Part shown: one piece after another, positions 4,893 to 15,008 of the stretch
Layout of the letters: each line of letters starts with the position of its first letter
Numbering within the stretch: the stretch's first letter is position 1
Assembly (NCBI GenBank): GCA_001001285.1
Contig: LCKG01000003.1
Location: 27,746 to 91,745, forward strand
From: Parcubacteria group bacterium GW2011_GWC1_45_13
GTDB taxonomy: Bacteria; Patescibacteriota; Minisyncoccia; UBA11713; 2-01-FULL-45-33
Direction: 5' to 3'
Length of the DNA: 64,000 nucleotides
Notes under the pieces: model-generated
What the model was told of the DNA's origin: nothing
The model's input: the letters and a program-made list of their open reading frames with translations, nothing else
Database searches by the model: none
Position numbers and translations under genes: made by a program

Positions 4893-7676
4893 ATGAGCGA
4901 GGCGGGAAGCGTAGTTTTTAAAGAGGAATCAAAGAAAGGCGCGCTGTTTGGAGCGCGCGGGCTTAATTTTAAGCGCTATTTTACTAAGGAAGGCGTCCAT
5001 CCCTATGATGAAATAGCGTGGGAAAAACGCGTTGCCCGCATCACCTCATCCAAAGGCGAGGTTATTTTTGAGCAAAAGGGCGTTGAGGCGCCGAAATTTT
5101 GGTCGCAGACGGCAACGGACATTGTCGCCGAGAAATATTTTATGGGGCATGTCGGCAAGCCCGGCAGGGAGTGGTCCGTAAAACAGCTTATAGACCGCGT
5201 TGCAAATACGATGGCGGACTGGGGCAGGCAAGGCGGTTGTTTCGCGGACGAAAAAGACGCGCAAATTTTCAACGAGGAGCTTAAATGGCTATTGGTCAAC
5301 CAGTACGCCTCATTTAATTCGCCGGTTTGGTTTAATGTCGGGGTTGAAAAGAAACCGCAGTGCTCGGCCTGTTTCATTTTGTCCATTACGGACGATAAAG
5401 AGTCCATTGCCGAATGGTATAGGACAGAGATGATGATTTTTTCAGGCGGCTCCGGCGCGGGAATAAATATTTCGCCTCTGCGCTCGTCCAAAGAAAATAT
5501 CGCCGGCCGCGGGAAATCGTCAGGCCCGGTGTCTTTTATGAAAGGAGCCGACGCGATTGCCGGCACAATCCGTTCCGGCGGCAAGACGCGAAGGGCGGCT
5601 AAGATGGTGATTTTAAACGCAAGCCACCCCGATATAAAAACTTTCATAGTTTCCAAATGGAAGGAGGAAGAAAAAGCAAAAGCGCTTATCTCTATGGGTT
5701 ATAACGACGACATTGACGGCGACGTCTATTCAAACATTTTTTTCCAAAACGCCAACAATTCCGTCCGCGCCACGGATGATTTTATGAACGCGGTTTTGGA
5801 AGACAAAAATTGGGAACTCCGAATGATAAAGACAGGCGAGGTTGCCGAGACATTAAAAGCAAGGGACCTTATGAAGCTCATCGCCGAGGCGGCTTGGCAC
5901 TGCGCCGACCCGGGCATGCAATTTGATACGACGATTAATAAATGGCACACCGCTCCCGCCGCAGGCCGCATCAACGGCTCCAACCCGTGCTCGGAATACA
6001 TGCACTTGGACGATTCCGCCTGCAATCTTGCTTCACTAAATCTTCTTAAATTTTTAAATCCGCCGGCTGGCGGAGGCAATTTTGACCACGAGGCGTTTAA
6101 AAAAGCCGTCGGCATTTTTATCACGGCGCAGGATATTACCGTGGACAATTCTTCCTACCCCACGGCTAAAATTGAACAAAACGCCCGCGCTTTCCGCGAA
6201 CTTGGCCTGGGGTACACGAATCTCGGCGCGCTTTTAATGCAGATGGGCTTTCCTTATGATTCAGACGCCGCGCGGGCTTGGGCGGCCGCGATAACTTCAA
6301 TGATGACCGGCGAGGCCTACAATATTTCCACGCGTGTTGCCGAAGCAGTCGGCCCATTTTCCGGATATGAAAAAAATAAGGAGCCGATGCTCGGCGTAAT
6401 CCGCATGCACGGCGAAGAAGCAAAAAAAATAAGCAAAAAGTATCTGCCGGCGGACGTTTGGGAATCCGCCCAAACGCCTTGGGCCGAGGCTCAAAAGCGC
6501 GGCCAGCTCTCTGGCGTCCGGAATTCCCAAGTGAGCGTTTTGGCGCCAACCGGCACGATTTCTTTCATGATGGACGCCACAACCACTGGCATTGAGCCGG
6601 CGTTTTCGCTCGTCGCCTACAAAAAAATGGTGGGCAGAGGATTTTTGAAAATCGCGAACACCTCCGTTGAGCCTGCGCTCAAAAATTTGGGATATAAAGA
6701 ACAAGAAGTCAAAGAAATAATGGATTATATTTTAGCGCATGACGGCATTGAAGGCGCCCCGCATCTTAAAGAAAAAGACATCGCCGTTTTTGATTGTGCC
6801 GTGAACGCCCCCGGCGGCAAGCGAGCCATCCATTATTCCGGCCACATCCGCATGATAGCCGCCGCGCAACCTTTCATTTCCGGAGCGATTTCCAAAACAG
6901 TGAATCTCCCCGAGTCGGCGACGGTTGAGGATATTATGAACACCTACATCGACGCTTGGAAAATGGGGCTTAAGGCGATCGCAATTTACCGCGACAAATC
7001 CAAAGGCGCCCAGCCCCTAAACACTTCCAAGGCAAAGCCATCAAGCGAAAGCGCTGTTGGTGCCAAAGAGGCCGCGCCGTCGGAAGTTGAAAGAAAAAAA
7101 TTGCCGTCAAACGTAAAATCTCTACGCCATAAATTTTCCATCGCAGGGCACGAGGGCTATATCCATTGCGGAATGTATGAAGACGGCAAATTGGGCGAAA
7201 TTTTTATCCGCGTGGCCAAAGAGGGCTCTACCATATCCGGTCTTCTGGATGCCATAGGCGTGCTCATGTCCGTCGCGCTCCAATCGGGAGTTCCGGTTGA
7301 AACTATCGTCAGAAAATTCGTCCATTCCCGTTTTGAGCCGGCCGGATACACAGAAAATCAGGATATTCCGGTTGCCAAATCAATTTTGGATTACATTGGA
7401 AAATTTTTAGCGCTCAATTTTCTTTCTCCAGATGACCAAGCTTCTTTCGGCATCTATTCGCATTCAAAAGAAGCGGAAACTGTCGTGGCGGAGCCTTTTA
7501 AGCTCAAAGAACAACCTAAGCTTTCCTCTCCGGCTTCCGTGCCAGCGGCGTACGACCGCGCTAAAATTTTCGCCTACCAGGATGCTCCCGCCTGCCGTTG
7601 CGGCGCGATTATGATCCGCACCGGCTCCTGCTACACCTGCCCCTCTTGCGGCGAAAACCTCGGGAGCTGCTCGTAG
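4893..7676 (+). CDS. nrdJ: Adenosylcobalamin-dependent (class II) ribonucleoside reductase
   Basis: Active-site region CSACFIL…; GGSGAGINISPLR…GPVSFMKG; C-terminal Cys-rich tail CRCGAIMIRTGSCYTCPSCG typical of NrdJ. 927 aa. Confidence 0.9.
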   Translation: MSEAGSVVFKEESKKGALFGARGLNFKRYFTKEGVHPYDEIAWEKRVARITSSKGEVIFEQKGVEAPKFWSQTATDIVAEKYFMGHVGKPGREWSVKQLIDRVANTMADWGRQGGCFADEKDAQIFNEELKWLLVNQYASFNSPVWFNVGVEKKPQCSACFILSITDDKESIAEWYRTEMMIFSGGSGAGINISPLRSSKENIAGRGKSSGPVSFMKGADAIAGTIRSGGKTRRAAKMVILNASHPDIKTFIVSKWKEEEKAKALISMGYNDDIDGDVYSNIFFQNANNSVRATDDFMNAVLEDKNWELRMIKTGEVAETLKARDLMKLIAEAAWHCADPGMQFDTTINKWHTAPAAGRINGSNPCSEYMHLDDSACNLASLNLLKFLNPPAGGGNFDHEAFKKAVGIFITAQDITVDNSSYPTAKIEQNARAFRELGLGYTNLGALLMQMGFPYDSDAARAWAAAITSMMTGEAYNISTRVAEAVGPFSGYEKNKEPMLGVIRMHGEEAKKISKKYLPADVWESAQTPWAEAQKRGQLSGVRNSQVSVLAPTGTISFMMDATTTGIEPAFSLVAYKKMVGRGFLKIANTSVEPALKNLGYKEQEVKEIMDYILAHDGIEGAPHLKEKDIAVFDCAVNAPGGKRAIHYSGHIRMIAAAQPFISGAISKTVNLPESATVEDIMNTYIDAWKMGLKAIAIYRDKSKGAQPLNTSKAKPSSESAVGAKEAAPSEVERKKLPSNVKSLRHKFSIAGHEGYIHCGMYEDGKLGEIFIRVAKEGSTISGLLDAIGVLMSVALQSGVPVETIVRKFVHSRFEPAGYTENQDIPVAKSILDYIGKFLALNFLSPDDQASFGIYSHSKEAETVVAEPFKLKEQPKLSSPASVPAAYDRAKIFAYQDAPACRCGAIMIRTGSCYTCPSCGENLGSCS

Positions 7677-7808
7677 CGGTATGGGCAAATAACATGGGCT
7701 TGCTCAATAAACACTTCTGGAAATTTTTCGCGGGGCTGATCGCGCTGATCTCTATTGGATTTTTAACGATTTACGCCACCGATTTTTACGCGAAAAAACA
7801 ATCTGCCG

Positions 7809-8087
7809 GTGAAGCCAAGATTTTGGAATCAAAAAGTTCGCGACCTGCCAGGTGAACTATATATTTTGGCGAAAATATTTGTAAAAGCCAAGGCTGGCGC
7901 AAAGAAGGAAAGCGTTTTAAAAACCGGCGTTTCGGAATTTAAAATTGCCGTAAAAGAGCCGGCGAAGGAGGGGAAAGCGAACGAGGCAGTCGCCAGGGTG
8001 TTGGCGGAATATTTCGGCATCGCACTTTCCAGAGTTCGGCTTCTTTCCGGATTTACCTCCCGCCAAAAAATTTTTGAGATTCTCTAG
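7809..8087 (+). CDS. DUF167/YggU (UPF0235) family protein
   Basis: …ILAKIFVKAKAGAKKESV…KIAVKEPAKEGKANEAVARVLAEYFGIALSRVRLLSGFTSRQKIFEI matches the DUF167 pattern (…APP.EGKAN..L…G.TSR.K…). Start uncertain. Overlaps a 54-aa membrane mini-ORF (7694..7855) in another frame. Confidence 0.55.
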   Translation: MKPRFWNQKVRDLPGELYILAKIFVKAKAGAKKESVLKTGVSEFKIAVKEPAKEGKANEAVARVLAEYFGIALSRVRLLSGFTSRQKIFEIL

Positions 8088-8098
8088 TTTATATATCA

Positions 8099-8124
8099 GC
8101 TAATTCGTGAGAATTAGAGAATAG
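8099..8124 (+). promoter_or_regulatory. 26-bp repeat GCTAATTCGTGAGAATTAGAGAATAG containing palindrome CTAATTC-N4-GAATTAG (copy 1, overlapping the arsR-family gene promoter)
   Basis: Exact duplicate at 8473..8498. A TAGAAT -10 lies at 8138..8143, only 6 nt before the ATG, so the mRNA is near-leaderless. Confidence 0.6.
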
Positions 8125-8149
8125 TTGCGGGGTGTGCTAGAATTTTATT

Positions 8150-8413
8150 ATGAATGAAAAAGAGCTGGAAAAGGCGTTAAAAGCGCTGGCCAATAAAAGA
8201 AGGCTTCAAATTCTGCGGTATTTAAAAAAAGTTAAAGAAGCGCCGGTGGGGGATATCGCTGAAGAAATTCGTTTGTCGTTTAAATCAACCTCCCGGCACT
8301 TGGCGGTGCTTGCCGCGGCCGATATTTTAGAGCGGGACCAAAGAAGCCTCCAAGTTTTCTATCGCCTCGGCGCGCTTCGGCACGCGGCGAAATATATTTT
8401 ATCTATTCTTTGA
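8150..8413 (+). CDS. ArsR/SmtB-family winged-helix transcriptional regulator
   Basis: LKALANKRRLQILRYL…VGDIAEEIRLSFKSTSRHLAVLAAADIL…FYRL is a typical ArsR HTH. 87 aa. Confidence 0.75.
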   Translation: MNEKELEKALKALANKRRLQILRYLKKVKEAPVGDIAEEIRLSFKSTSRHLAVLAAADILERDQRSLQVFYRLGALRHAAKYILSIL

Positions 8414-8472
8414 TGCAATTTTTATGCTTTTATATTTTTGCTTATACCTTTTGTTGTGCTTCTTGTGTCTCG

Positions 8473-8498
8473 GCTAATTCGTGAGAATTAGAGAATAG
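8473..8498 (+). promoter_or_regulatory. 26-bp palindromic repeat, copy 2 (between arsR-like gene and putative endonuclease gene)
   Basis: Identical 26-mer to 8099..8124. Confidence 0.6.
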
Positions 8499-8620
8499 AT
8501 GGGGTTGGGGGAGGCGGGTTTTGGTTTGATAAATAAATGATTTTGTGCGAGAATTTGAGGGAGTGTTGATTTTCGTCTTTAAAATATATTAAATTTGGTA
8601 TATTCTAGAAAAATCAACTC

Positions 8621-9325
8621 TTGAATATGTTGTTAGAAAAAGAAAAAAGAAAATCAGGTAACGAAGCAATACGCGTTTTAATTTCCTTAAAAACAAAGAT
8701 TTTGCGTGATTTAAAGGAAGTTGTTAATGCTGGCGATTTTGATTACCGCACTTTTGGTACAGCCATTGAAAAGCATCTTACTGATATTATTGTCAGTATT
8801 TTTGAGAAAGCCGGTTTTATTAAAAATAATAAAGATTATATCGTTGCACCCCATAAAAATTATTTTCCAGATTTCGAACTAAAAACAGCGCCACCCATCG
8901 CTATTGAGTTTAAATCCGGGAATAGAAATCAAAATAGACAGGGTAAATGGGCGACGGTTAAAAATAGCGAGAATGATATGGGCACTCTTAATGAATGGCC
9001 CAAAAGAATTAAAAAATTCGGTGGTAAAAATATTTATTATATTTTTGTTATCTATAATTTTAGTGAGAAAACAAAACAAGTTCAAAATGTTGAAATCGCT
9101 CCGTTTTATGAATTTTTAGGTTTGAACAAGTCCAAGTTTATTAAATATCGAGAAAAAGATGGAAATTTGCGGCCCAAAAATTTTGATGCTAAGCCGCCCA
9201 TTAAAACTTTTGAGCAATTTGAACAATTAATCAACAAAACCGCCGTTTATAGATCCAGGCGAATTATTAAGAAGCACAGACAAATTATAAAGGATGTGCA
9301 GAATATTAAAAAAGGGATGGATTAA
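8621..9325 (+). CDS. Putative Type II restriction endonuclease (PD-(D/E)xK fold) – hypothetical
   Basis: …YFPDFELKTAPPIAIEFKSG… gives PD-x12-EFK, a PD-(D/E)xK-like catalytic signature. Convergent with the MTase gene, overlapping it by 20 nt. AT-rich. No recognisable family beyond the motif. Confidence 0.45.
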   Translation: MNMLLEKEKRKSGNEAIRVLISLKTKILRDLKEVVNAGDFDYRTFGTAIEKHLTDIIVSIFEKAGFIKNNKDYIVAPHKNYFPDFELKTAPPIAIEFKSGNRNQNRQGKWATVKNSENDMGTLNEWPKRIKKFGGKNIYYIFVIYNFSEKTKQVQNVEIAPFYEFLGLNKSKFIKYREKDGNLRPKNFDAKPPIKTFEQFEQLINKTAVYRSRRIIKKHRQIIKDVQNIKKGMD

Positions 9326-10868
9326 TTGGTTTACTATTCTGCTTTGTGCCGTAAGTTAATTTAGGATTATCTATAGGATAGATCCCTTCGTTCTCGGATA
9401 TAGTCAAATTTCTTAAATATTTTGATGCCGTTTCAGGCGCGTCGTTGTTATACTTATAACCATTACTTGAACGATAATTAACCTTTTTAAGTTTATCCGC
9501 AACGATTTTTTTATATTTTGGGTCTATATCAATACCAATATAATTTCGGCCTAGTCTTTTTGCTGCCAAAGCTGTTGTACCAGCACCGATAAATGGATCT
9601 AAAATAACATCGTTTTCATCTGTAGTCATAAGAACCAGACGTTCAAGTAATGGTTCGGGGAGTTGGCACGGATGAGCGTCCCTGCGCGTATTATGTCTTA
9701 TGCGATGTATATCCGCCCAAACATCGCTCAAAAGAGTCCCGTGCGGGTGTATTTGGCTTTTCTTGCCCCCATAGTCTTTAATCATTTCACCACAAGTTCG
9801 GCATTTTTTATGCGGCGATCTAAGTTCATGGAATTTAAATCCCTTGGGGGTTTTTGTATAAAATAGTATTCCATAGTGTGCTGGCAACAAAGTTTTTCCC
9901 AGAGGCGTACTCATTGAATCCCATGCTATCCAGTGTTTAAAGATAGCAATTTTGTTAAGATGGTTGGCATAATAAATTAACCACTTTGGTATATTGTGAA
10001 CCAAAATCGAACCCGTTGGTTTAGTTATTCTGACCATTTCGGTTAACCATTGCTCGCACCATTTTATATAATCCTCCGCAACCCTTTTATCTTTATAGTT
10101 TCCGTATTTTTTGTTTAGGTTAAATGGCGGGTCGGCAAAAGTCATATCAATTGAGTTATCGGGTATTTTTCTCATCTCCTCAATTGAATCTCCACACAAA
10201 ATTTCGTTTAATGGAAGTTTTTTGTATTGTTTTGTTTCAGTTTTGATTTCCGGAAAAATAATAGATATGGGCGTTTCCTCTCGAATAACATCTAGCACAA
10301 TCCCTTGAATAGCTACATCCCGCCCATTTCTGAAAATAAGAGGTTCCATATTTTTATTAGCCGGCTGTAAACGGATATATCCGTGCTCTTTATAGAATTT
10401 TTTTAAGGTTGCTTCGTGGTTATCTATAAGAGCTACTACTTTTTGCCCATTTTCGGCAGTTTCTTGTTGGCGCACCAAAACAACGTCGCCATCGTTGATA
10501 TTTTCATCAATCATACTATTCCCGACAACGCGGAGAGCATAAACCTCCGATGAGGAGGGAATTTTACTTTTCGGGACGGCTATGGTTTCTCTTTGTTCCT
10601 CAAATACATGGATTGGCTCACCGGCGGCTATTGTTCCCCATAAAGGAATTTTTACTAGCTTCTCCGACGAGGATATTTCAATGCCTCTTTTCTGATTTTT
10701 TTGCCGCTGTAAATAACCCTTATTTTGCAGTGCCATTAAATGTTGATGAATTGTGGATATAGCCAAGCCCATCCTTTGCCCCATTTCTTTAATGGAGGGC
10801 GCAAAGCCGCGCTTTTTGGTGTAGGAGGTTACAAAATCTAACACCTGTTTTTGCCTGGGGGTAAGCAT
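9306..10868 (-). CDS. LexA repressor (wHTH + S24 autopeptidase) fused to beta-class N6-adenine/N4-cytosine DNA methyltransferase
   Basis: LexA half (N-terminal ~200 aa): LTPRQKQVLDF…; Ala-Gly cleavage site in GTIAAGEP; LRVVGNSMIDENINDGDVVLV (nucleophile Ser); ATLKKF (general-base Lys); IQGIVLDVIR. MTase half (C-terminal ~320 aa): motif IV DMTFADPPF precedes motif I DPFIGAGTTALAAKRLGRNYIGIDID (beta-group order); CxxC…HPH insert. Single uninterrupted 520-aa ORF. Confidence 0.8.
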   Translation of the reverse strand: MLTPRQKQVLDFVTSYTKKRGFAPSIKEMGQRMGLAISTIHQHLMALQNKGYLQRQKNQKRGIEISSSEKLVKIPLWGTIAAGEPIHVFEEQRETIAVPKSKIPSSSEVYALRVVGNSMIDENINDGDVVLVRQQETAENGQKVVALIDNHEATLKKFYKEHGYIRLQPANKNMEPLIFRNGRDVAIQGIVLDVIREETPISIIFPEIKTETKQYKKLPLNEILCGDSIEEMRKIPDNSIDMTFADPPFNLNKKYGNYKDKRVAEDYIKWCEQWLTEMVRITKPTGSILVHNIPKWLIYYANHLNKIAIFKHWIAWDSMSTPLGKTLLPAHYGILFYTKTPKGFKFHELRSPHKKCRTCGEMIKDYGGKKSQIHPHGTLLSDVWADIHRIRHNTRRDAHPCQLPEPLLERLVLMTTDENDVILDPFIGAGTTALAAKRLGRNYIGIDIDPKYKKIVADKLKKVNYRSSNGYKYNNDAPETASKYLRNLTISENEGIYPIDNPKLTYGTKQNSKPINPSLF

Positions 10869-10909
10869 ATTTTAATTTTAGCAGGTATATACCGAAAGAA
10901 AACCGAAAG

Positions 10910-10918
10910 TTATCCACA
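10910..10918 (+). promoter_or_regulatory. Perfect DnaA box TTATCCACA in the divergent promoter region of the LexA-MTase gene
   Basis: Exact 9-mer, 42 nt upstream of the minus-strand start codon. Flanked by the direct repeat ACCGAAAG-aaa-ACCGAAAG (10893..10908). Confidence 0.45.
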
Positions 10919-11012
10919 ACCATTAAAAAGGCGCTTGAATAAAAACCTAAAATCCACTAAGATTTAGGGGATTTGTAACCGGGTCGACAAAAAATTAGGA
11001 GAGTAAATTTTT

Positions 11013-11678
11013 ATGTCAGAATCAATAAATATTAACGATGTTTTTAAAGAAATAGAAAAGTCTGATAAGTCAGAATATCATCGCGGTAAATCTTGGGAAC
11101 ATTGTTATATTTTTTTCAGAAACTATAAAAAATTCGGAAGTGATAAGTTGATGGCAGATTACGCAGCGCTACATTTGGGTTTTTTTCTAGCTAGTTGGGG
11201 GATGTTGCGTGGTTCGAGCTTTTTGTTGCAGAAAGATTACAGATACTTCCTTCCGGTTGTTCGCGTATTGATAAAAGACCAATATAAAGTTTTGTGGAAT
11301 GTTGGCTATTTAAATTTGAACAAAAATCAAGAAAGCGAAATTATTGATATCTTGTTTTGGTTAAAAGACGACATTTGTAAAGTTATGACTCACAATAATC
11401 CTGACGGTAGAAAACCAACCGATTTGTTGATAACAAAAATTATAATGGCCACGATGGGCTGCGTGCCCGCTTATGATCAATATTTTAAGGCCGGTCTTAA
11501 GAGGCGTGGAATTAAAAATAACTTCAGCAAAAAAGCCTTCATAGATTTATTGAATTTCTCGAGAAAAAAACTAGAAAAACTTTATATCAAAAAACAGCCT
11601 ATTAAAGGGACAAATTATAATTATCCTACAGTGAAACTTATAGATTTATACTTTTGGCTTTTAGGTTCGCAAAAATAA
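11013..11678 (+). CDS. Hypothetical protein (divergent from LexA-MTase gene)
   Basis: 221-aa ORF with no recognisable motifs. AT-rich. Shares the 144-bp intergenic region with the LexA-MTase promoter. Confidence 0.6.
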   Translation: MSESININDVFKEIEKSDKSEYHRGKSWEHCYIFFRNYKKFGSDKLMADYAALHLGFFLASWGMLRGSSFLLQKDYRYFLPVVRVLIKDQYKVLWNVGYLNLNKNQESEIIDILFWLKDDICKVMTHNNPDGRKPTDLLITKIIMATMGCVPAYDQYFKAGLKRRGIKNNFSKKAFIDLLNFSRKKLEKLYIKKQPIKGTNYNYPTVKLIDLYFWLLGSQK

Positions 11679-11693
11679 CCGGCCAACAAAAAA

Positions 11694-12074
11694 TTAACGG
11701 GAGAAAGTTTTTTGGATTAAAAAGCCCAGAAGCCAGCCGATGAGGCCGAGGGCGATTGGAAAATAAATGTGGGAGAGGTCAAAATAAACTTCAAAAATCA
11801 CCGCGGGGATGAGCAAAACGCCAATCCACCAGTATTTTTTTGAACCGCCGAAGGCGGTGAAGAGGAGAGTGAGGAAGAAAATGTATGAAAGTGGTATACC
11901 TAAAAGAAAGTTTTCAGCAGATTTCGGCGTGCTAAATAGACTTCCCTCACTAGCACCCTGGGGGAAAAAATAAACATACAGGTTGCCAACCTGATTTGCA
12001 AAAAAATAAGCCAAAACTAAAACAACAATCAGAATGCAAATATTTTTTATTAAATTTTTTAGATCTTCGCTCAT
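11694..12074 (-). CDS. Hypothetical integral membrane protein
   Basis: 126 aa with about four predicted TM helices. 4-nt overlap with the downstream lipase gene. Confidence 0.55.
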   Translation of the reverse strand: MSEDLKNLIKNICILIVVLVLAYFFANQVGNLYVYFFPQGASEGSLFSTPKSAENFLLGIPLSYIFFLTLLFTAFGGSKKYWWIGVLLIPAVIFEVYFDLSHIYFPIALGLIGWLLGFLIQKTFSR

Positions 12075-14461
12075 AAATTATTTAATAGCCAATTAATATC
12101 TTCTTTTAATAAGTTGTAAGCTTGGTCGTTGATGTTTTTGGGATGTTCTCGTTCCAATTCGGCAAGGAACGTTTTTAACGTCTTTTGAGTGATGGGTTTG
12201 TTGTGGATATCTATCCTCTCTAATTTCCCAATCAGAGTGTTTTTAACGCTCTTTTTGGTTATCCACCCCAAAGAATACACGCGCTCAATATCGGAGATTG
12301 TACTCTGGATAGTCGCAATGACACGGAACACCGTCTCTTGATTCGCGAAGTTTCCTACAAAATCAACGGAGTTTACTGCAACCTTATGCTCTCCCAACTT
12401 CTCAAAGAATAAATCAATTATATCGCCGTTCTTTACCATTCTATCATCAAATTTAATCTCTGCGGAGGCAATGCCGGATTCCACATCGCCCACATCCACG
12501 TTTATGAAAATGGTTTCGGAGCGGAGATAATCGCGGGAGACAGGGGAAAGGATATTAATGCTTGGCGGGGTTACATCTTTTGGTTTTATTTCTAAATCGG
12601 TAGGGCTTTCGTTGTTTACTTTTAAGTCCAACTCCGTAATTAATCCGGGCTGGGTTTGGGAGGTATAGTCTTTATCCACAGAGATATTATCTGAAATATA
12701 GCCCGTGGCGATGGTATATTCGCCGCTTCCGGTTCCTTGAGCTTCAATTTTATATTCGCCGTCCAATGGATTAGGGATAGTTATATATTCGTCGTCCGTA
12801 AGAAATCCGGAATAAAACGCGCCATCAATTTGATTAATTTCGTTCCCGCTCGCGAAGTCTTTGCCAATTCTTTTCCCGTCCGGCGCAGTTACTAAAACAT
12901 CAACAGGGGAGAGGATTTTGATGAGGAGGAGTTTCGGATTTATCGATAAGCCATGATCAATCAAGATTGCGGCATTTGCGCCAGTAAGTTTTTTGAAGAT
13001 TAAGCCCTCGGCATTTGTTGGTAACGCATTATGCCCTGAAATCAATTGATTCAAATCACTTACTATAAATTCTCCGCTGCCAGCGGGTACAGTTCCGTCG
13101 CCGAATCCAAATTCAAAGCCTCTATCTGCTGTTGAGCCATCAAATCCATCTGGATAACCATTTTCCCATAAAGGAGTACTGGGAGAATTCACAACTCTAA
13201 TAGCATTTAGAGTGCTGTTATCTCCCAAATCGCCGACTACATTAGTAATTTTTATATTTTTATCAAAAAGACTTAAAACGCTGGTTTTAAGATTTTCAAG
13301 AAAAGTATTTTGAGGATAATTATTTGGATAAGTACGCAACGTTCCGCTATCTTTATCGCGTAGGTAATTGTAAGTTGGGAGAAGTTCTTGGACAGAAGAA
13401 ATTGGTTTGTTTCTTACATAATCAAATAGACTAGAGTACCTCGCCTTTTTAGCTTCTCTACCTAAAACAAATTTCATAAACCAGTCTCTTAGTCTTTCGC
13501 CGGTGTTGCCTGTTTTTGTACCAATCTCACCCGCTTCCCACATAAGATAAGCAAAAGGAGCCCCTAAATGCGGCGTTCCTAAAAAGATCAGTTGGTCAAC
13601 GTCGTTTTCGTAGTTGCCCGACTGGATGTATTGGCGCGCGACGAGGCCGCCCATGGAATGGGCAACAAGGTCAACTTTCGCGCAGTGGCAAACATTTTGG
13701 ACTTCGTTTATTTTGTCGCGAAGCTGGACGGCGGTAATCACATTAGATTGCCGCCAATCGTACGGAAAAGTGAAAAGATCTTTGCCGTCAACATATCCGT
13801 TGGCTTTTAAGGTCGCAATCAGGTCGTCATAGGTATGAAAAATCGGGTCAATCACCCAGACGCCGTTTTTGTCCGACGAGCCCAAAATCCCGGGAATGAT
13901 TATGACGGGGTCTGGCTTTGCTGGCGCTTGTATGGCGCTTTTTATATCAAAATGGATTAAGGCATGCTGGAAATCACCAATCCCTTTTTCAAATAAATCC
14001 ACTGTTTGCGCGGAGCTGGACGCGTCCGAAACGGCTACGAAAAAAGACTGGTTTGTCCCCAGCGGCATTTTAATTATGCCGTCAACGTTTCTATTGGCAC
14101 CGTCGCAGGAAAAGAGAGGAAAGTTAGAGCCAGCTTGGTAAAGCTTGGAATGGCCGATTTCATTACCTCTTGTTCCGTCATAAGTAAAAACATCAAAGCG
14201 AGGATTCAGAATATTGCCATTCGCACATTTGCTGTATACTTGTATGGCGGCAGGAGTTGTAGAGCCGATTAAGGTAAGTGGAAAACAATCCGTGCTGGAG
14301 TTAATTAGGCGCAGAAGCTCCCAGTTGTTCAGCGGCCCGGTAAACTCCGTGATAAACGTGCAGTCGCTCGATTGCAAAGAAGCATAATCCGCGAAGGCAA
14401 TTTGTGCCGTAAGCAGGGCGTAAACAGCGAAAAAAATGGTTAAAGCGTGTTTTCGCATTGC
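12071..14461 (-). CDS. Secreted lipase/esterase-like alpha/beta hydrolase (GxSxG)
   Basis: Signal peptide MRKHALTIFFAVYALLTAQIAFA (start taken at the second Met). Lipase nucleophile elbow VAHSMGGLV. About 800 aa with a long C-terminal beta-rich region. Confidence 0.7.
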   Translation of the reverse strand, partial: AMRKHALTIFFAVYALLTAQIAFADYASLQSSDCTFITEFTGPLNNWELLRLINSSTDCFPLTLIGSTTPAAIQVYSKCANGNILNPRFDVFTYDGTRGNEIGHSKLYQAGSNFPLFSCDGANRNVDGIIKMPLGTNQSFFVAVSDASSSAQTVDLFEKGIGDFQHALIHFDIKSAIQAPAKPDPVIIIPGILGSSDKNGVWVIDPIFHTYDDLIATLKANGYVDGKDLFTFPYDWRQSNVITAVQLRDKINEVQNVCHCAKVDLVAHSMGGLVARQYIQSGNYENDVDQLIFLGTPHLGAPFAYLMWEAGEIGTKTGNTGERLRDWFMKFVLGREAKKARYSSLFDYVRNKPISSVQELLPTYNYLRDKDSGTLRTYPNNYPQNTFLENLKTSVLSLFDKNIKITNVVGDLGDNSTLNAIRVVNSPSTPLWENGYPDGFDGSTADRGFEFGFGDGTVPAGSGEFIVSDLNQLISGHNALPTNAEGLIFKKLTGANAAILIDHGLSINPKLLLIKILSPVDVLVTAPDGKRIGKDFASGNEINQIDGAFYSGFLTDDEYITIPNPLDGEYKIEAQGTGSGEYTIATGYISDNISVDKDYTSQTQPGLITELDLKVNNESPTDLEIKPKDVTPPSINILSPVSRDYLRSETIFINVDVGDVESGIASAEIKFDDRMVKNGDIIDLFFEKLGEHKVAVNSVDFVGNFANQETVFRVIATIQSTISDIERVYSLGWITKKSVKNTLIGKLERIDIHNKPITQKTLKTFLAELEREHPKNINDQAYNLLKEDINWLLNNL

Positions 14462-14500
14462 TTTTATTTTTAACATAGCGCGCGAATAAAATCCAAGCGC

Positions 14501-14528
14501 TTGCAATTTTTTGGGGGCGCGCTATAAT
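14501..14528 (+). promoter_or_regulatory. Sigma70-like promoter for rnpB (TTGCAA-16-TATAAT)
   Basis: TTGCAA at 14501..14506 and TATAAT at 14523..14528, just upstream of the RNase P RNA 5' end. Confidence 0.5.
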
Positions 14529-14531
14529 GTA

Positions 14532-15008
14532 GGAAGATTCTTCGCCGGATAGCCGGTCCGATGCAAGATCGGACAGGAAAGTCCGAGCACCGCTAAGGTA
14601 TTCCCGACGCAAAGTCGGGATGCTCAAAGTTGCAGCCTCGCTGCGCTTCGGGCAACTTTGGCAGAGGCAGTGGCTAACGGCCACCCCCCGCCAACGGCGG
14701 GGCGAGAAACTCCGACGTAAAGTCGGAGCCCCGACTTCATTATTAAATTTTTTAATAGTGCGTCGGGGGTGTCACAGAGACAATACCGCGGACGTCATCA
14801 TTTTCGGTCTAAAGCCGGAAGCGTTGATAGCGCAAGGGTGAAAAGAGGTGAGGTAAAAGCTCACAGCATGCGTTGGCGACAGCGCGTGGTGAAAAACACT
14901 TGCCCGGTGCAACCTGCCTTATCGGCGGGGCTAGAGCCCGAGAGAAATCGAGGGCCCAGACAGATGGCTATTTAAACAGAACTCGGCTTATGAGCGGAGA
15001 ATCAGAAT
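14532..15008 (+). ncRNA. rnpB: RNase P RNA (bacterial type A)
   Basis: Universally conserved P4 elements AGGAAAGTCCGAGCACCGC (about 14575..14593) and ACAGAACTCGGCTTATGAGCGG (about 14976..14997). AAGGGTGAAAAGAGGTGAGGTAAAAGCTCACAGC matches the P10-P12 region. 5' GAAGATTCTTCGCC pairs with 3' GGCGGAGAATC (P1). Ends are +/- 5 nt. Confidence 0.85.

What the first reader, a model, noticed from the sequence alone, without database searches (positions are those of the whole stretch)
10869..11678. Divergent unknown gene sharing a motif-dense 144-bp control region with the LexA-MTase
The intergenic region contains a perfect DnaA box, a tandem direct repeat ACCGAAAG-aaa-ACCGAAAG, and an imperfect inverted repeat CCTAAAATC-N6-GATTTAGG. 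Any of these could be the operator of the LexA-like domain, because direct-repeat LexA boxes exist in some lineages. The divergently transcribed 221-aa protein has no recognisable domain and is AT-rich like the rest of the island, so it may be a third component of the system.
Basis: inference. Interest (0 to 1): 0.5.

Follow-up and report, generated by a model that had tools for sequence, protein, structure and literature searches.

The report
LexA-methylase promoter beside an unrelated gene
The 144-bp spacer is mainly the conserved, probably self-repressed promoter of a LexA-fused DNA methylase in a mobile restriction-modification cassette, and the neighbouring 221-aa gene is an unrelated passenger from a large uncharacterised family with a weak resemblance to DNA glycosylases.

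Summary

The interpretation splits in two.

(1) Supported by comparison. In 22 promoters of LexA-methylase homologues from other Patescibacteria, the gene is always preceded by a DnaA-box 9-mer and by a 6-10-bp direct repeat with an 11-bp period. In most of them a -10 hexamer follows. The repeat unit changes between loci in step with the LexA recognition helix, for example TTTCTAT with STAHFHV in 4 of 4 loci. The tandem ACCGAAAG repeat is therefore very probably the operator of the LexA-like domain. The DnaA box is a second, invariant input.

(2) Not supported. The 221-aa protein is not a third component. It is absent from 26 of 26 other LexA-methylase loci, all of which keep the 234-aa restriction-enzyme partner. 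Its roughly 2,650 family representatives sit in unrelated contexts, often near prophage ends and defence islands.

The inverted repeat is near chance level and is not conserved.

The parts
10869..11012 (.). 144-bp intergenic spacer between the divergent LexA-MTase gene (-) and the 221-aa gene (+)
10875..10880 (-). -10-like hexamer TAAAAT of the LexA-MTase promoter. It ends 6 nt before the ATG, which predicts a leaderless mRNA. It aligns with TATAAT in the homologous promoters.
   Evidence: the position and the leaderless reading are inference
10891..10898 (-). Promoter-proximal copy of the direct repeat (CTTTCGGT in gene orientation, -30..-23 from the ATG); putative LexA-domain half-site
10902..10909 (-). 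Promoter-distal copy of the direct repeat (-41..-34 from the ATG); putative LexA-domain half-site
10910..10918 (+). Perfect DnaA-box 9-mer TTATCCACA, directly abutting the distal repeat copy (-50..-42 from the LexA-MTase ATG). A copy with at most one mismatch lies within 140 nt upstream in all 22 homologous promoters.
10935..10963 (+). Candidate sigma-70-type promoter of the 221-aa gene: TTGAAT, 17-nt spacer, TAAGAT (8 of 12 matches, below the scanner's threshold of 9)
   Evidence: read; not reported; inference
10950..10974 (.). Imperfect inverted repeat AAATCCACTAA / TTAGGGGATTT. It overlaps the candidate -10 of the 221-aa gene and is probably not a functional element.
10997..11001 (+). Shine-Dalgarno AGGAG of the 221-aa gene. 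The surrounding 5'UTR (ACAAAAAATTAGGAGA) is shared with the homologue in L085.
11013..11678 (+). 221-aa ORF. It belongs to a large uncharacterised all-helical family with invariant R24, S27, W28, C31, K142, P152, Y154, D155, K208 and D211.
11681..11714 (+). Second copy of a ~34-nt direct repeat that brackets the 221-aa ORF (the first copy is at 10982-11015)
9306..10868 (-). LexA (wHTH + S24 peptidase) fused to an N6/N4 DNA methyltransferase; the gene that the repeat and DnaA-box module controls
8621..9325 (+). 234-aa convergent partner with a PD...ExK-type motif, a putative type II restriction endonuclease. A homologue is present in 26 of 26 LexA-MTase loci.

Best explanation
The spacer is first of all the promoter and operator of the LexA-methyltransferase gene. 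That gene belongs to a self-contained, mobile type II restriction-modification cassette: the methylase plus a convergent 234-aa endonuclease, and in some genomes a small Xre-type controller.

Read in the orientation of the methylase gene, the module is:
- a DnaA box (TGTGGATAA, -50..-42 from the ATG);
- two CTTTCGGT units with an 11-bp period (-41..-23);
- a -10-like TAAAAT that ends 6 nt before the ATG, so the mRNA is probably leaderless.

Inferred mechanism. The N-terminal LexA winged helix of the fusion binds the tandem repeat as a dimer. Alphaproteobacterial LexA binds GTTC-N7-GTTC in the same geometry. Binding would repress the gene's own promoter. The intact Ala-Gly cleavage site and Ser/Lys dyad would let RecA-stimulated self-cleavage lift that repression after DNA damage. 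The invariant DnaA box adds a second input from a conserved host factor, most simply DnaA.

The 221-aa gene is a separately acquired passenger with its own weak promoter and ribosome-binding site, and is not part of the system. It belongs to a large uncharacterised family carried as single-gene cargo in variable regions, prophage ends and defence islands. My best guess for its activity, at about 30%, is a DNA base-excision or base-modifying enzyme of the helix-hairpin-helix glycosylase fold class, using invariant K142 and D155.
For: Shown by tool results:
- The LexA-MTase fusion has more than 100 full-length homologues at 65-83% identity. A82-G83, S118 and K156 are invariant.
- The 234-aa partner is present in 26 of 26 loci and the 221-aa homologue in 0 of 26.
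- The flanking genes of the cassette differ in every locus.
- All 22 promoters examined carry an exact 6-10-nt repeat at an 11-bp period. Only period 11 stands out, and per-locus shuffle frequencies are 0 to 78 per 2000.
- The repeat unit tracks the recognition helix. ST(I/V)H(Q/E/K)H-type helices go with TTCG(G/C) units in 11 loci. STAHFHV goes with TTTCTAT in 4 of 4. STVHHH(V/I) goes with CGTTCTA in 2 of 2. PTVYQYV goes with GTTAGTA, and STAHEHL with GCTCGGG.
- 16 of the 17 exact DnaA 9-mers in 177 kb of sixteen loci lie in this promoter.
- The class-I promoters align as TGTGGATAACT-TTCGG-TTTT-CTTTCGG-N8-10-(TG)ATATAAT.
- Direct-repeat LexA boxes are documented (PMC4951493).

For the 221-aa protein:
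- about 2,650 family representatives at 50% identity clustering;
- heterogeneous neighbours;
- 78 viral contigs, often next to recombinases;
- an AF2 model with pLDDT 93.7;
Against: - No binding or expression data exist. The operator assignment rests on conservation and co-variation, and loci that share a repeat unit are partly related by descent.
- No second copy of the repeat occurs elsewhere in the 64-kb window. There is therefore no sign of a wider regulon, only autoregulation.
- The -35 region of the LexA-MTase promoter is poor, and the leaderless start is inferred from spacing only.
- The DnaA box could be bound by a factor other than DnaA.
- The 221-aa gene shares the low-GC island with the cassette. 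Physical co-transfer in this one strain is not excluded.
Confidence: 0.68

Rival explanations
1. The 221-aa protein is a third component of the LexA-MTase system, and the shared spacer co-regulates both genes.
For: The two genes are divergent and adjacent, and both lie in the low-GC island. The DnaA box has the same orientation relative to the 221-aa gene as the boxes upstream of the ribonucleotide reductase and rpoB genes in this window. A few homologues sit near R-M or methylase genes: L169 next to a type ISP enzyme, and L001 near two methylases.
Against: None of 26 other LexA-MTase loci has a homologue, while the REase partner is in all 26. The immediate neighbours of 85 homologue loci show no recurrent methylase. 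The repeats lie about 60-80 nt upstream of the likely start of the 221-aa transcript, which is not a repressor position. A ~34-nt repeat brackets the ORF, and its 5'UTR travels with the gene in L085.
Confidence: 0.06
2. The tandem repeat is not a LexA-domain operator. It is the site of another factor, such as the small Xre-type controller protein seen in some cassettes, DnaA-associated binding, or the methylase domain itself.
For: There is no direct binding evidence. The repeat abuts the DnaA box in most loci. C-protein-like ORFs exist in seven loci.
Against: The controller ORF was seen in only seven of the loci, while every promoter examined has the repeat. The repeat unit varies although the methylase domain is highly conserved, and it co-varies with the LexA recognition helix. 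The DnaA box stays invariant while the repeat changes, so two different readers are implied. No repeat unit lies upstream of the REase genes.
Confidence: 0.14
3. The 221-aa protein is not an enzyme that acts on DNA. It is a helical protein with some other role, such as a regulator, an anti-defence binder or a structural adaptor, and its glycosylase resemblance is coincidental.
Confidence: 0.45

Closest known systems
Alphaproteobacterial LexA box GTTC-N7-GTTC (direct-repeat SOS operator)
   Same: Two identical half-sites in direct orientation with an 11-bp period, in the promoter of a gene that encodes a LexA DNA-binding domain. Several homologous loci (L012, L018, L019, L279) literally read GTTC-N7-GTTC (PMC4951493).
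   Different: Here the unit is TTTCGG(T). The LexA domain is fused to a DNA methyltransferase in a restriction-modification cassette. No other SOS-type target was found in the window. The unit drifts between loci together with the recognition helix.
Self-regulating type II methyltransferases with an N-terminal DNA-binding region (M.SsoII, M.Ecl18kI, M.EcoRII)
   Same: The methylase itself carries the domain that binds its own promoter region and sets R-M expression (references in PMC3874152).
   Different: Here the regulatory domain is a complete LexA, with winged helix, Ala-Gly cleavage site and S24 Ser/Lys peptidase, so the repression should be cleavable. The operator is a tandem direct repeat, and a DnaA box is a fixed part of the promoter.
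DnaA-box-controlled promoters (DnaA acting as a transcription factor, for example at dnaA and nrd genes)
   Same: A perfect TTATCCACA lies just upstream of the core promoter. In this window the same 9-mer also lies upstream of the ribonucleotide reductase and rpoB genes.
   Different: It is a single box with no oriC-like cluster, attached to a mobile R-M cassette. DnaA binding is not shown.
HhH-GPD DNA glycosylases (Ogg/AGOG, EndoIII, MagIII, AlkA) and the related aGPT-Pplases
   Different: No sequence or profile similarity. Foldseek is not significant. The Lys-Asp spacing is 13 residues; my recollection, not checked here, is that it is about 18-19 in these enzymes. No conserved Gly-rich hairpin and no Fe-S cluster motif.

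Membership tests
LexA operator (direct-repeat type) | Two equivalent half-sites at fixed spacing in direct orientation | tested here: met
   ACCGAAAG occurs twice, start-to-start 11 bp. The same geometry is found in all 22 homologous promoters, and only period 11 stands out.
LexA operator (direct-repeat type) | Overlaps the core promoter of the gene that encodes the LexA domain (autoregulation) | tested here: met
   The repeats lie at -41..-23 from the ATG, upstream of a -10-like hexamer. In L018-L020 the second unit overlaps TATAAT.
LexA operator (direct-repeat type) | Half-site sequence matches the specificity of the LexA recognition helix | tested here: met
   The repeat unit co-varies with the helix across 23 loci including the window. 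This is correlative only.
LexA operator (direct-repeat type) | Further copies upstream of other damage-inducible genes (a regulon) | tested here: not met
   Only one exact site occurs in 64 kb, and sites with 1-2 mismatches are at chance level.
LexA operator (direct-repeat type) | Bound by the LexA domain in vitro or in vivo | not testable with these tools
   Needs EMSA, footprinting or ChIP.
DnaA box | 9-mer TTATCCACA | tested here: met
   Exact match at 10910-10918. An exact copy occurs in 15 of the 16 scanned homologous promoters, with one mismatch in the last, and in all 5 further ones.
DnaA box | Bound by DnaA | not testable with these tools
   No dnaA gene or binding data are available from this window.
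Third component of the LexA-MTase R-M cassette | Co-occurrence with LexA-MTase homologues | tested here: not met
   0 of 26 loci carry a 221-aa homologue, against 26 of 26 for the REase.
Third component of the LexA-MTase R-M cassette | Homologues restricted to R-M or methylase contexts | tested here: not met
   Neighbours are heterogeneous and include housekeeping genes such as ThrRS and DNA pol III alpha.
HhH-GPD DNA glycosylase superfamily (221-aa protein) | Match to the sequence profile (Pfam HhH-GPD or related) | tested here: not met
   No Pfam hit at E<=1. hhalign against E. coli EndoIII gives probability 0.1%. A PDB profile search finds no glycosylase.
HhH-GPD DNA glycosylase superfamily (221-aa protein) | Two-lobed all-helical fold superposable on known members | tested here: inconclusive
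HhH-GPD DNA glycosylase superfamily (221-aa protein) | Conserved helix-hairpin-helix with a Gly-rich hairpin | tested here: not met
   The loop before helix 137-147 (residues 129-136) is variable in the family alignment.
HhH-GPD DNA glycosylase superfamily (221-aa protein) | Gly/Pro-rich loop followed by a catalytic Asp, with or without a catalytic Lys | tested here: inconclusive
   K142, G149, P152 and D155 are invariant or nearly so, and D155 caps helix 156-164. The spacing differs from my recollection of known enzymes, and no residue-level superposition was available.

The most novel reading that the evidence does not exclude
The DnaA-box and tandem-repeat module is a bidirectional two-input switch. 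Self-cleavage of the LexA-methylase after DNA damage, together with DnaA occupancy, would control the methylase. In this strain the same switch would also control the divergent glycosylase-like 221-aa gene. That gene would then have been recruited as a damage- or replication-coupled base-excision accessory of a restriction-modification cassette.
Probability: 0.08. Interest if true: 0.7.

Novelty: new variant of a known kind. Interest (0 to 1): 0.45.

Why it matters
The proposed third component is not one, so that part of the finding is ordinary.

What the region does reveal is a cleanly conserved promoter design for a widespread patescibacterial R-M cassette. The methylase carries a complete, apparently cleavable LexA. 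Its probable operator is a tandem repeat whose sequence co-evolves with the recognition helix. An invariant DnaA box is wired in beside it.

If confirmed, this would link restriction-modification expression to DNA damage and to replication status. It would also give a natural series of matched helix and operator pairs for studying how LexA specificity evolves.

I found no description of the fusion or its operator in the searchable literature. A 2017 paper on the patescibacterial SOS network could not be read.

Separately, the 221-aa protein flags a family of about 2,650 representatives with no annotation. It has a confident structural model and a candidate active site, and it is often carried at prophage ends.

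Tried and rejected
- Family libraries. Pfam, NCBIfam, PHROGs and PADLOC gave nothing for the 221-aa protein.
- Solved structures by sequence. A PDB profile search gave only a spurious TBC-domain hit at E 0.006.
- Fold searches. Foldseek against the PDB and BFVD found nothing significant. The afdb50 library was unavailable.
- Profile comparison.
- Fusion domains. DUF7662 and DUF7669 have no literature and no PDB relative.
- A wider regulon. The window has no further copy of the repeat. The promoters of the REase genes carry no repeat unit.
- A conserved partner gene for the 221-aa family. Only sporadic pairs turned up: a NYN-domain protein in L085 and L167, and a shared 210-aa ORF in L001 and L171.
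- RNA elements. No Rfam match in 10700-11900 and no tRNA in 7500-15000.
- The promoter scanner reported neither promoter proposed here. Both are below its threshold and rest on alignment or inspection.
- Plasmids hold no homologue, and annotated phage records hold one.
- The key prior paper on the patescibacterial SOS network (Sanchez-Osuna et al. 2017, PMID 28618189) is not in the library. I could not check whether it describes this motif.

Full report
**1. What is in the sequence**

The spacer 10869-11012 (144 bp) separates the start of a 520-aa ORF on the minus strand (9306-10868) from a 221-aa ORF on the plus strand (11013-11678).

The 520-aa protein is a full LexA fused to an N6/N4 DNA methyltransferase. 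Its hits are LexA_DNA_bind 1.7e-19, Peptidase_S24 3.7e-30, TIGR00498 lexA 5.4e-59 and N6_N4_Mtase 3.7e-51.

A 234-aa ORF (8621-9325) converges on it with a 20-nt overlap. It carries a PD...ExK-type motif (FPDF...IEFK) and a weak PADLOC type II REase hit.

- TTATCCACA at 10910-10918;
- ACCGAAAG at 10891 and 10902, an 11-bp period;
- an imperfect inverted repeat at 10950-10974.

GC is 0.32-0.39 across 8414-11700 against 0.45 for the window, so the low-GC island is real.

**2. The 221-aa protein is not part of the LexA-MTase system**

The fusion protein has more than 100 full-length homologues at 65-83% identity. The few that carry a source name are from Patescibacteria.

A scan of one genome per species returned 21 patescibacterial loci with the fusion. 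Five more were fetched individually.

In all 26 loci a homologue of the 234-aa ORF lies convergently downstream. None contains a homologue of the 221-aa protein.

The other flanking genes are different in every locus. They include DnaG, GrpE, NusG, SecDF, ABC transporters and recombinases. The cassette is therefore a self-contained two-gene unit that inserts in many places. In seven loci a 73-87-aa Xre-type ORF precedes the REase gene.

Conversely, the 221-aa protein belongs to a large family: 2,986 hits in one database and 2,652 cluster representatives in another.

I scanned 109 immediate neighbours from 85 homologue loci against Pfam. No family recurred more than five times: GIY-YIG 5, Abi_2 4, DUF6318 3, then singletons that range from type I R-M subunits to housekeeping enzymes.

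The closest homologues sit in these contexts:
- between ThrRS and a NYN-domain gene next to DNA pol III alpha;
- in a defence-like island beside a type ISP enzyme;
- beside Smr, DUF2726 and Trypco2 genes;
- beside a serine recombinase.

Seventy-eight IMG/VR contigs carry a homologue. The most frequent neighbours there are serine and tyrosine recombinases, which points to cargo at prophage ends. The one annotated phage record shows the same picture.

In the window, a ~34-nt direct repeat brackets the ORF (10982-11015 and 11681-11714). The 5'UTR segment ACAAAAAATTAGGAGA recurs upstream of the 56%-identical homologue in L085. The gene therefore appears to bring its own translation signals.

**3. 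What the spacer is**

I took the upstream regions of 17 LexA-MTase loci, later 22, and read them in the orientation of the methylase gene. They share one architecture.

The commonest form aligns as TGTGGATAACT-TTCGG-TTTT-CTTTCGG-N8-10-(TG)ATATAAT. In the window, L007, L010, L024 and L278 the -10 hexamer ends 6 nt before the ATG. No Shine-Dalgarno sequence is present, so a leaderless mRNA is the simplest reading; this is inference.

A second form occurs in L012, L018-L020, L279 and L281. There the box is inverted (TTATCCACA) and sits just upstream of a -35-like hexamer (TTGACA in L012 and L018-L020). The repeat lies in the spacer, and in four of the six it runs into TATAAT. L008 and L009 invert the whole box-plus-repeat module instead.

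*The repeat.* Every promoter has an exact 6-10-nt repeat at an 11-bp period. For periods 8-15, only 11 stands out. Per-locus dinucleotide-shuffle frequencies are 0 to 78 per 2000.

The unit is not constant. It changes in both copies together, and it changes with the recognition helix of the LexA domain:

| Recognition helix | Repeat unit | Loci |
|---|---|---|
| ST(I/V)H(Q/E/K)H and close variants | TTTCGG, GTTCGG or TTTCGC | 11 |
| STAHFHV | TTTCTAT | 4 of 4 (L014, L015, L024, L277) |
| STVHHH(V/I) | CGTTCTA | 2 of 2 (L012, L279) |
| PTVYQYV | GTTAGTA | 1 |
| STAHEHL | GCTCGGG | 1 |
| STVHEHV | ATCGGG | 1 |
| STAHYFV | TTCTAT | 1 |
| STVSYYL | TGTTCTATA | 1 |

L277 and L279 were fetched after the pattern had been noticed, and both matched the prediction.

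The methylase domain is far more conserved than the repeat, so the methylase is an unlikely reader of it. The geometry is that of the alphaproteobacterial LexA box GTTC-N7-GTTC (PMC4951493), and several loci read exactly that.

I conclude that the tandem repeat is very probably the autoregulatory operator of the LexA-like domain. This is inference from comparison, not a demonstration.

*The DnaA box.* In 177 kb of sixteen homologous loci there are 17 exact TTATCCACA 9-mers, and 16 of them lie in this promoter. L014 has a one-mismatch copy.

The box stays invariant while the repeat drifts. That implies a different, conserved reader, and DnaA is the obvious candidate.

In the window the 9-mer occurs six times against 0.25 expected, all on the plus strand. 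Other copies lie upstream of the class II ribonucleotide reductase gene and of rpoB. It is therefore a general promoter-associated element in this genome that the cassette has also adopted.

*The inverted repeat.* It is matched by 46 of 1000 shuffles. It is absent upstream of other 221-aa homologues. It recurs only in a 98%-identical contig. I treat it as unsupported.

*The promoter of the 221-aa gene.* TTGAAT-17-TAAGAT (10935-10963) is a plausible weak promoter. It would put the LexA-type repeats at about -62 to -79, which is not a repressing position. Sharing of the DnaA box cannot be excluded.

*Other checks.* No other copy of the repeat exists in the window or upstream of the REase genes. 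The evidence is for autoregulation, not for a regulon. No known RNA family or tRNA lies in the region.

**4. How the switch would work (inference)**

The fusion keeps the LexA cleavage site (IAAGEP, A82-G83) and the Ser118/Lys156 dyad. All are invariant in 19 homologues.

Bound as a dimer to the tandem repeat over the -35 and spacer region, the protein would hold its own synthesis down. RecA-stimulated self-cleavage would detach the DNA-binding domain from the dimerising peptidase-methylase part and derepress the promoter.

The poor -35 in the common promoter form, with a DnaA box at -50..-42, fits an activator-type input. Repression by DnaA is equally possible.

Self-regulating methylases with N-terminal DNA-binding regions are known, for example M.SsoII and M.EcoRII (reference list of PMC3874152). 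A complete, cleavable LexA in that role, with a direct-repeat operator and a fixed DnaA box, is a variant I could not find described.

One caveat applies. The 2017 comparative study of the patescibacterial SOS network could not be read.

**5. What the 221-aa protein might be**

The family alignment shows about twenty invariant residues. They fall in four blocks: R-x-x-SWEHCY-x-FF, LHLGFYLASWGM-x-RGSSFLLQKDY, TKILMGTMGCVPAYDRYF and YP-x-MKLLDMYFW.

The AlphaFold model is confident (pLDDT 93.7, pTM 0.91) and all-helical.

Invariant K142 lies on a helix. It is followed by G149-C-V-P152-A-Y-D155 at the start of the next helix, which recalls the Gly/Pro-Asp signature of these enzymes.

Against this:
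- Foldseek is not significant.
- No profile similarity exists.
- The hairpin loop is not conserved.
- The Lys-Asp spacing is shorter than I recall for these enzymes (not checked here).

Fusions are only to small uncharacterised domains: DUF7662 in 10 of 44 and DUF7669 in 4 of 44. The protein is basic, with pI 9.6. Occasional SRAP, Y-family polymerase, Mrr and Macro neighbours in viral contigs are compatible with DNA-lesion biology, but they are too few to count.

I put roughly 30% on a DNA base-excision or base-modifying activity. The rest goes to some other role.

**6. Verdict**

The direct repeat, and separately the DnaA box, are real, conserved control elements of the LexA-methylase gene. 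The inverted repeat is not. The 221-aa gene is a passenger rather than a third component.

The region is a new variant of known kinds: a self-regulated R-M methylase and a direct-repeat LexA operator. Interest is moderate. It comes from the promoter design and from the unannotated family, not from the proposal as originally framed.

Noticed in passing
window 4849, 10910, 12672, 36539, 42221, 58416: The perfect DnaA 9-mer TTATCCACA occurs six times against 0.25 expected, always on the + strand. Four copies are intergenic. One lies 44 nt upstream of the class II ribonucleotide reductase ORF, and one is upstream of rpoB, 11 nt before a TTGACA. It looks like a genome-wide promoter-associated element.
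   Followed up: partly
window 10982-11015 and 11681-11714; L085 845-903: A ~34-nt direct repeat brackets the 221-aa ORF. The second copy overlaps the 3' end of the 126-aa ORF on the opposite strand. L085 shares GGCCAACAAAAAATTAGGAGA in its 5'UTR. This could be a cassette boundary or a relic of a tandem duplication.
   Followed up: partly
L008, L013, L015, L020, L024, L277, L278 (upstream of the REase gene); window 8150-8413: In seven cassettes a 73-87-aa Xre/HTH_3 ORF, which looks like a C-protein, precedes the REase gene. The window lacks it and instead has an ArsR-type 87-aa ORF upstream of the REase gene. These cassettes may therefore have two separate regulators, one for R and one for M.
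   Followed up: no
window 9306-10868, residues 220-470; L027-L084, L173-L187: The methyltransferase domain alone is 57-70% identical to stand-alone methylases in Chloroflexota, Nitrospirota, Poribacteria, Planctomycetes, archaea and viral contigs. In the genome and viral scans, full-length matches that include the LexA part came only from contigs labelled Patescibacteria or similar, apart from one labelled Gammaproteobacteria (L024).
   Followed up: partly
L016 5900-6000: This promoter carries a second, inverted pair of the repeat (ACCGAAAATAAACCGAAAG) downstream of the -10. The two tandem sites therefore flank the -10 hexamer.
   Followed up: no
window 9306-9325: The REase and LexA-MTase ORFs converge and overlap by 20 nt at their 3' ends. 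The same tail-to-tail overlap is seen in most homologous loci, which raises the possibility of transcriptional interference.
   Followed up: no
L199-L276 (IMG/VR contigs); L165: Homologues of the 221-aa protein in viral contigs often lie within a few kb of a contig end, next to serine or tyrosine recombinases. Occasional neighbours are SRAP, Y-family polymerase, Mrr_cat and Macro-domain genes.
   Followed up: partly
window 11694-12074 (-): A 126-aa predicted membrane protein has no hit in any family library. It is present with the 221-aa gene in a 98%-identical metagenome contig (L166), which starts at window position 10924, just past the DnaA box.
   Followed up: no
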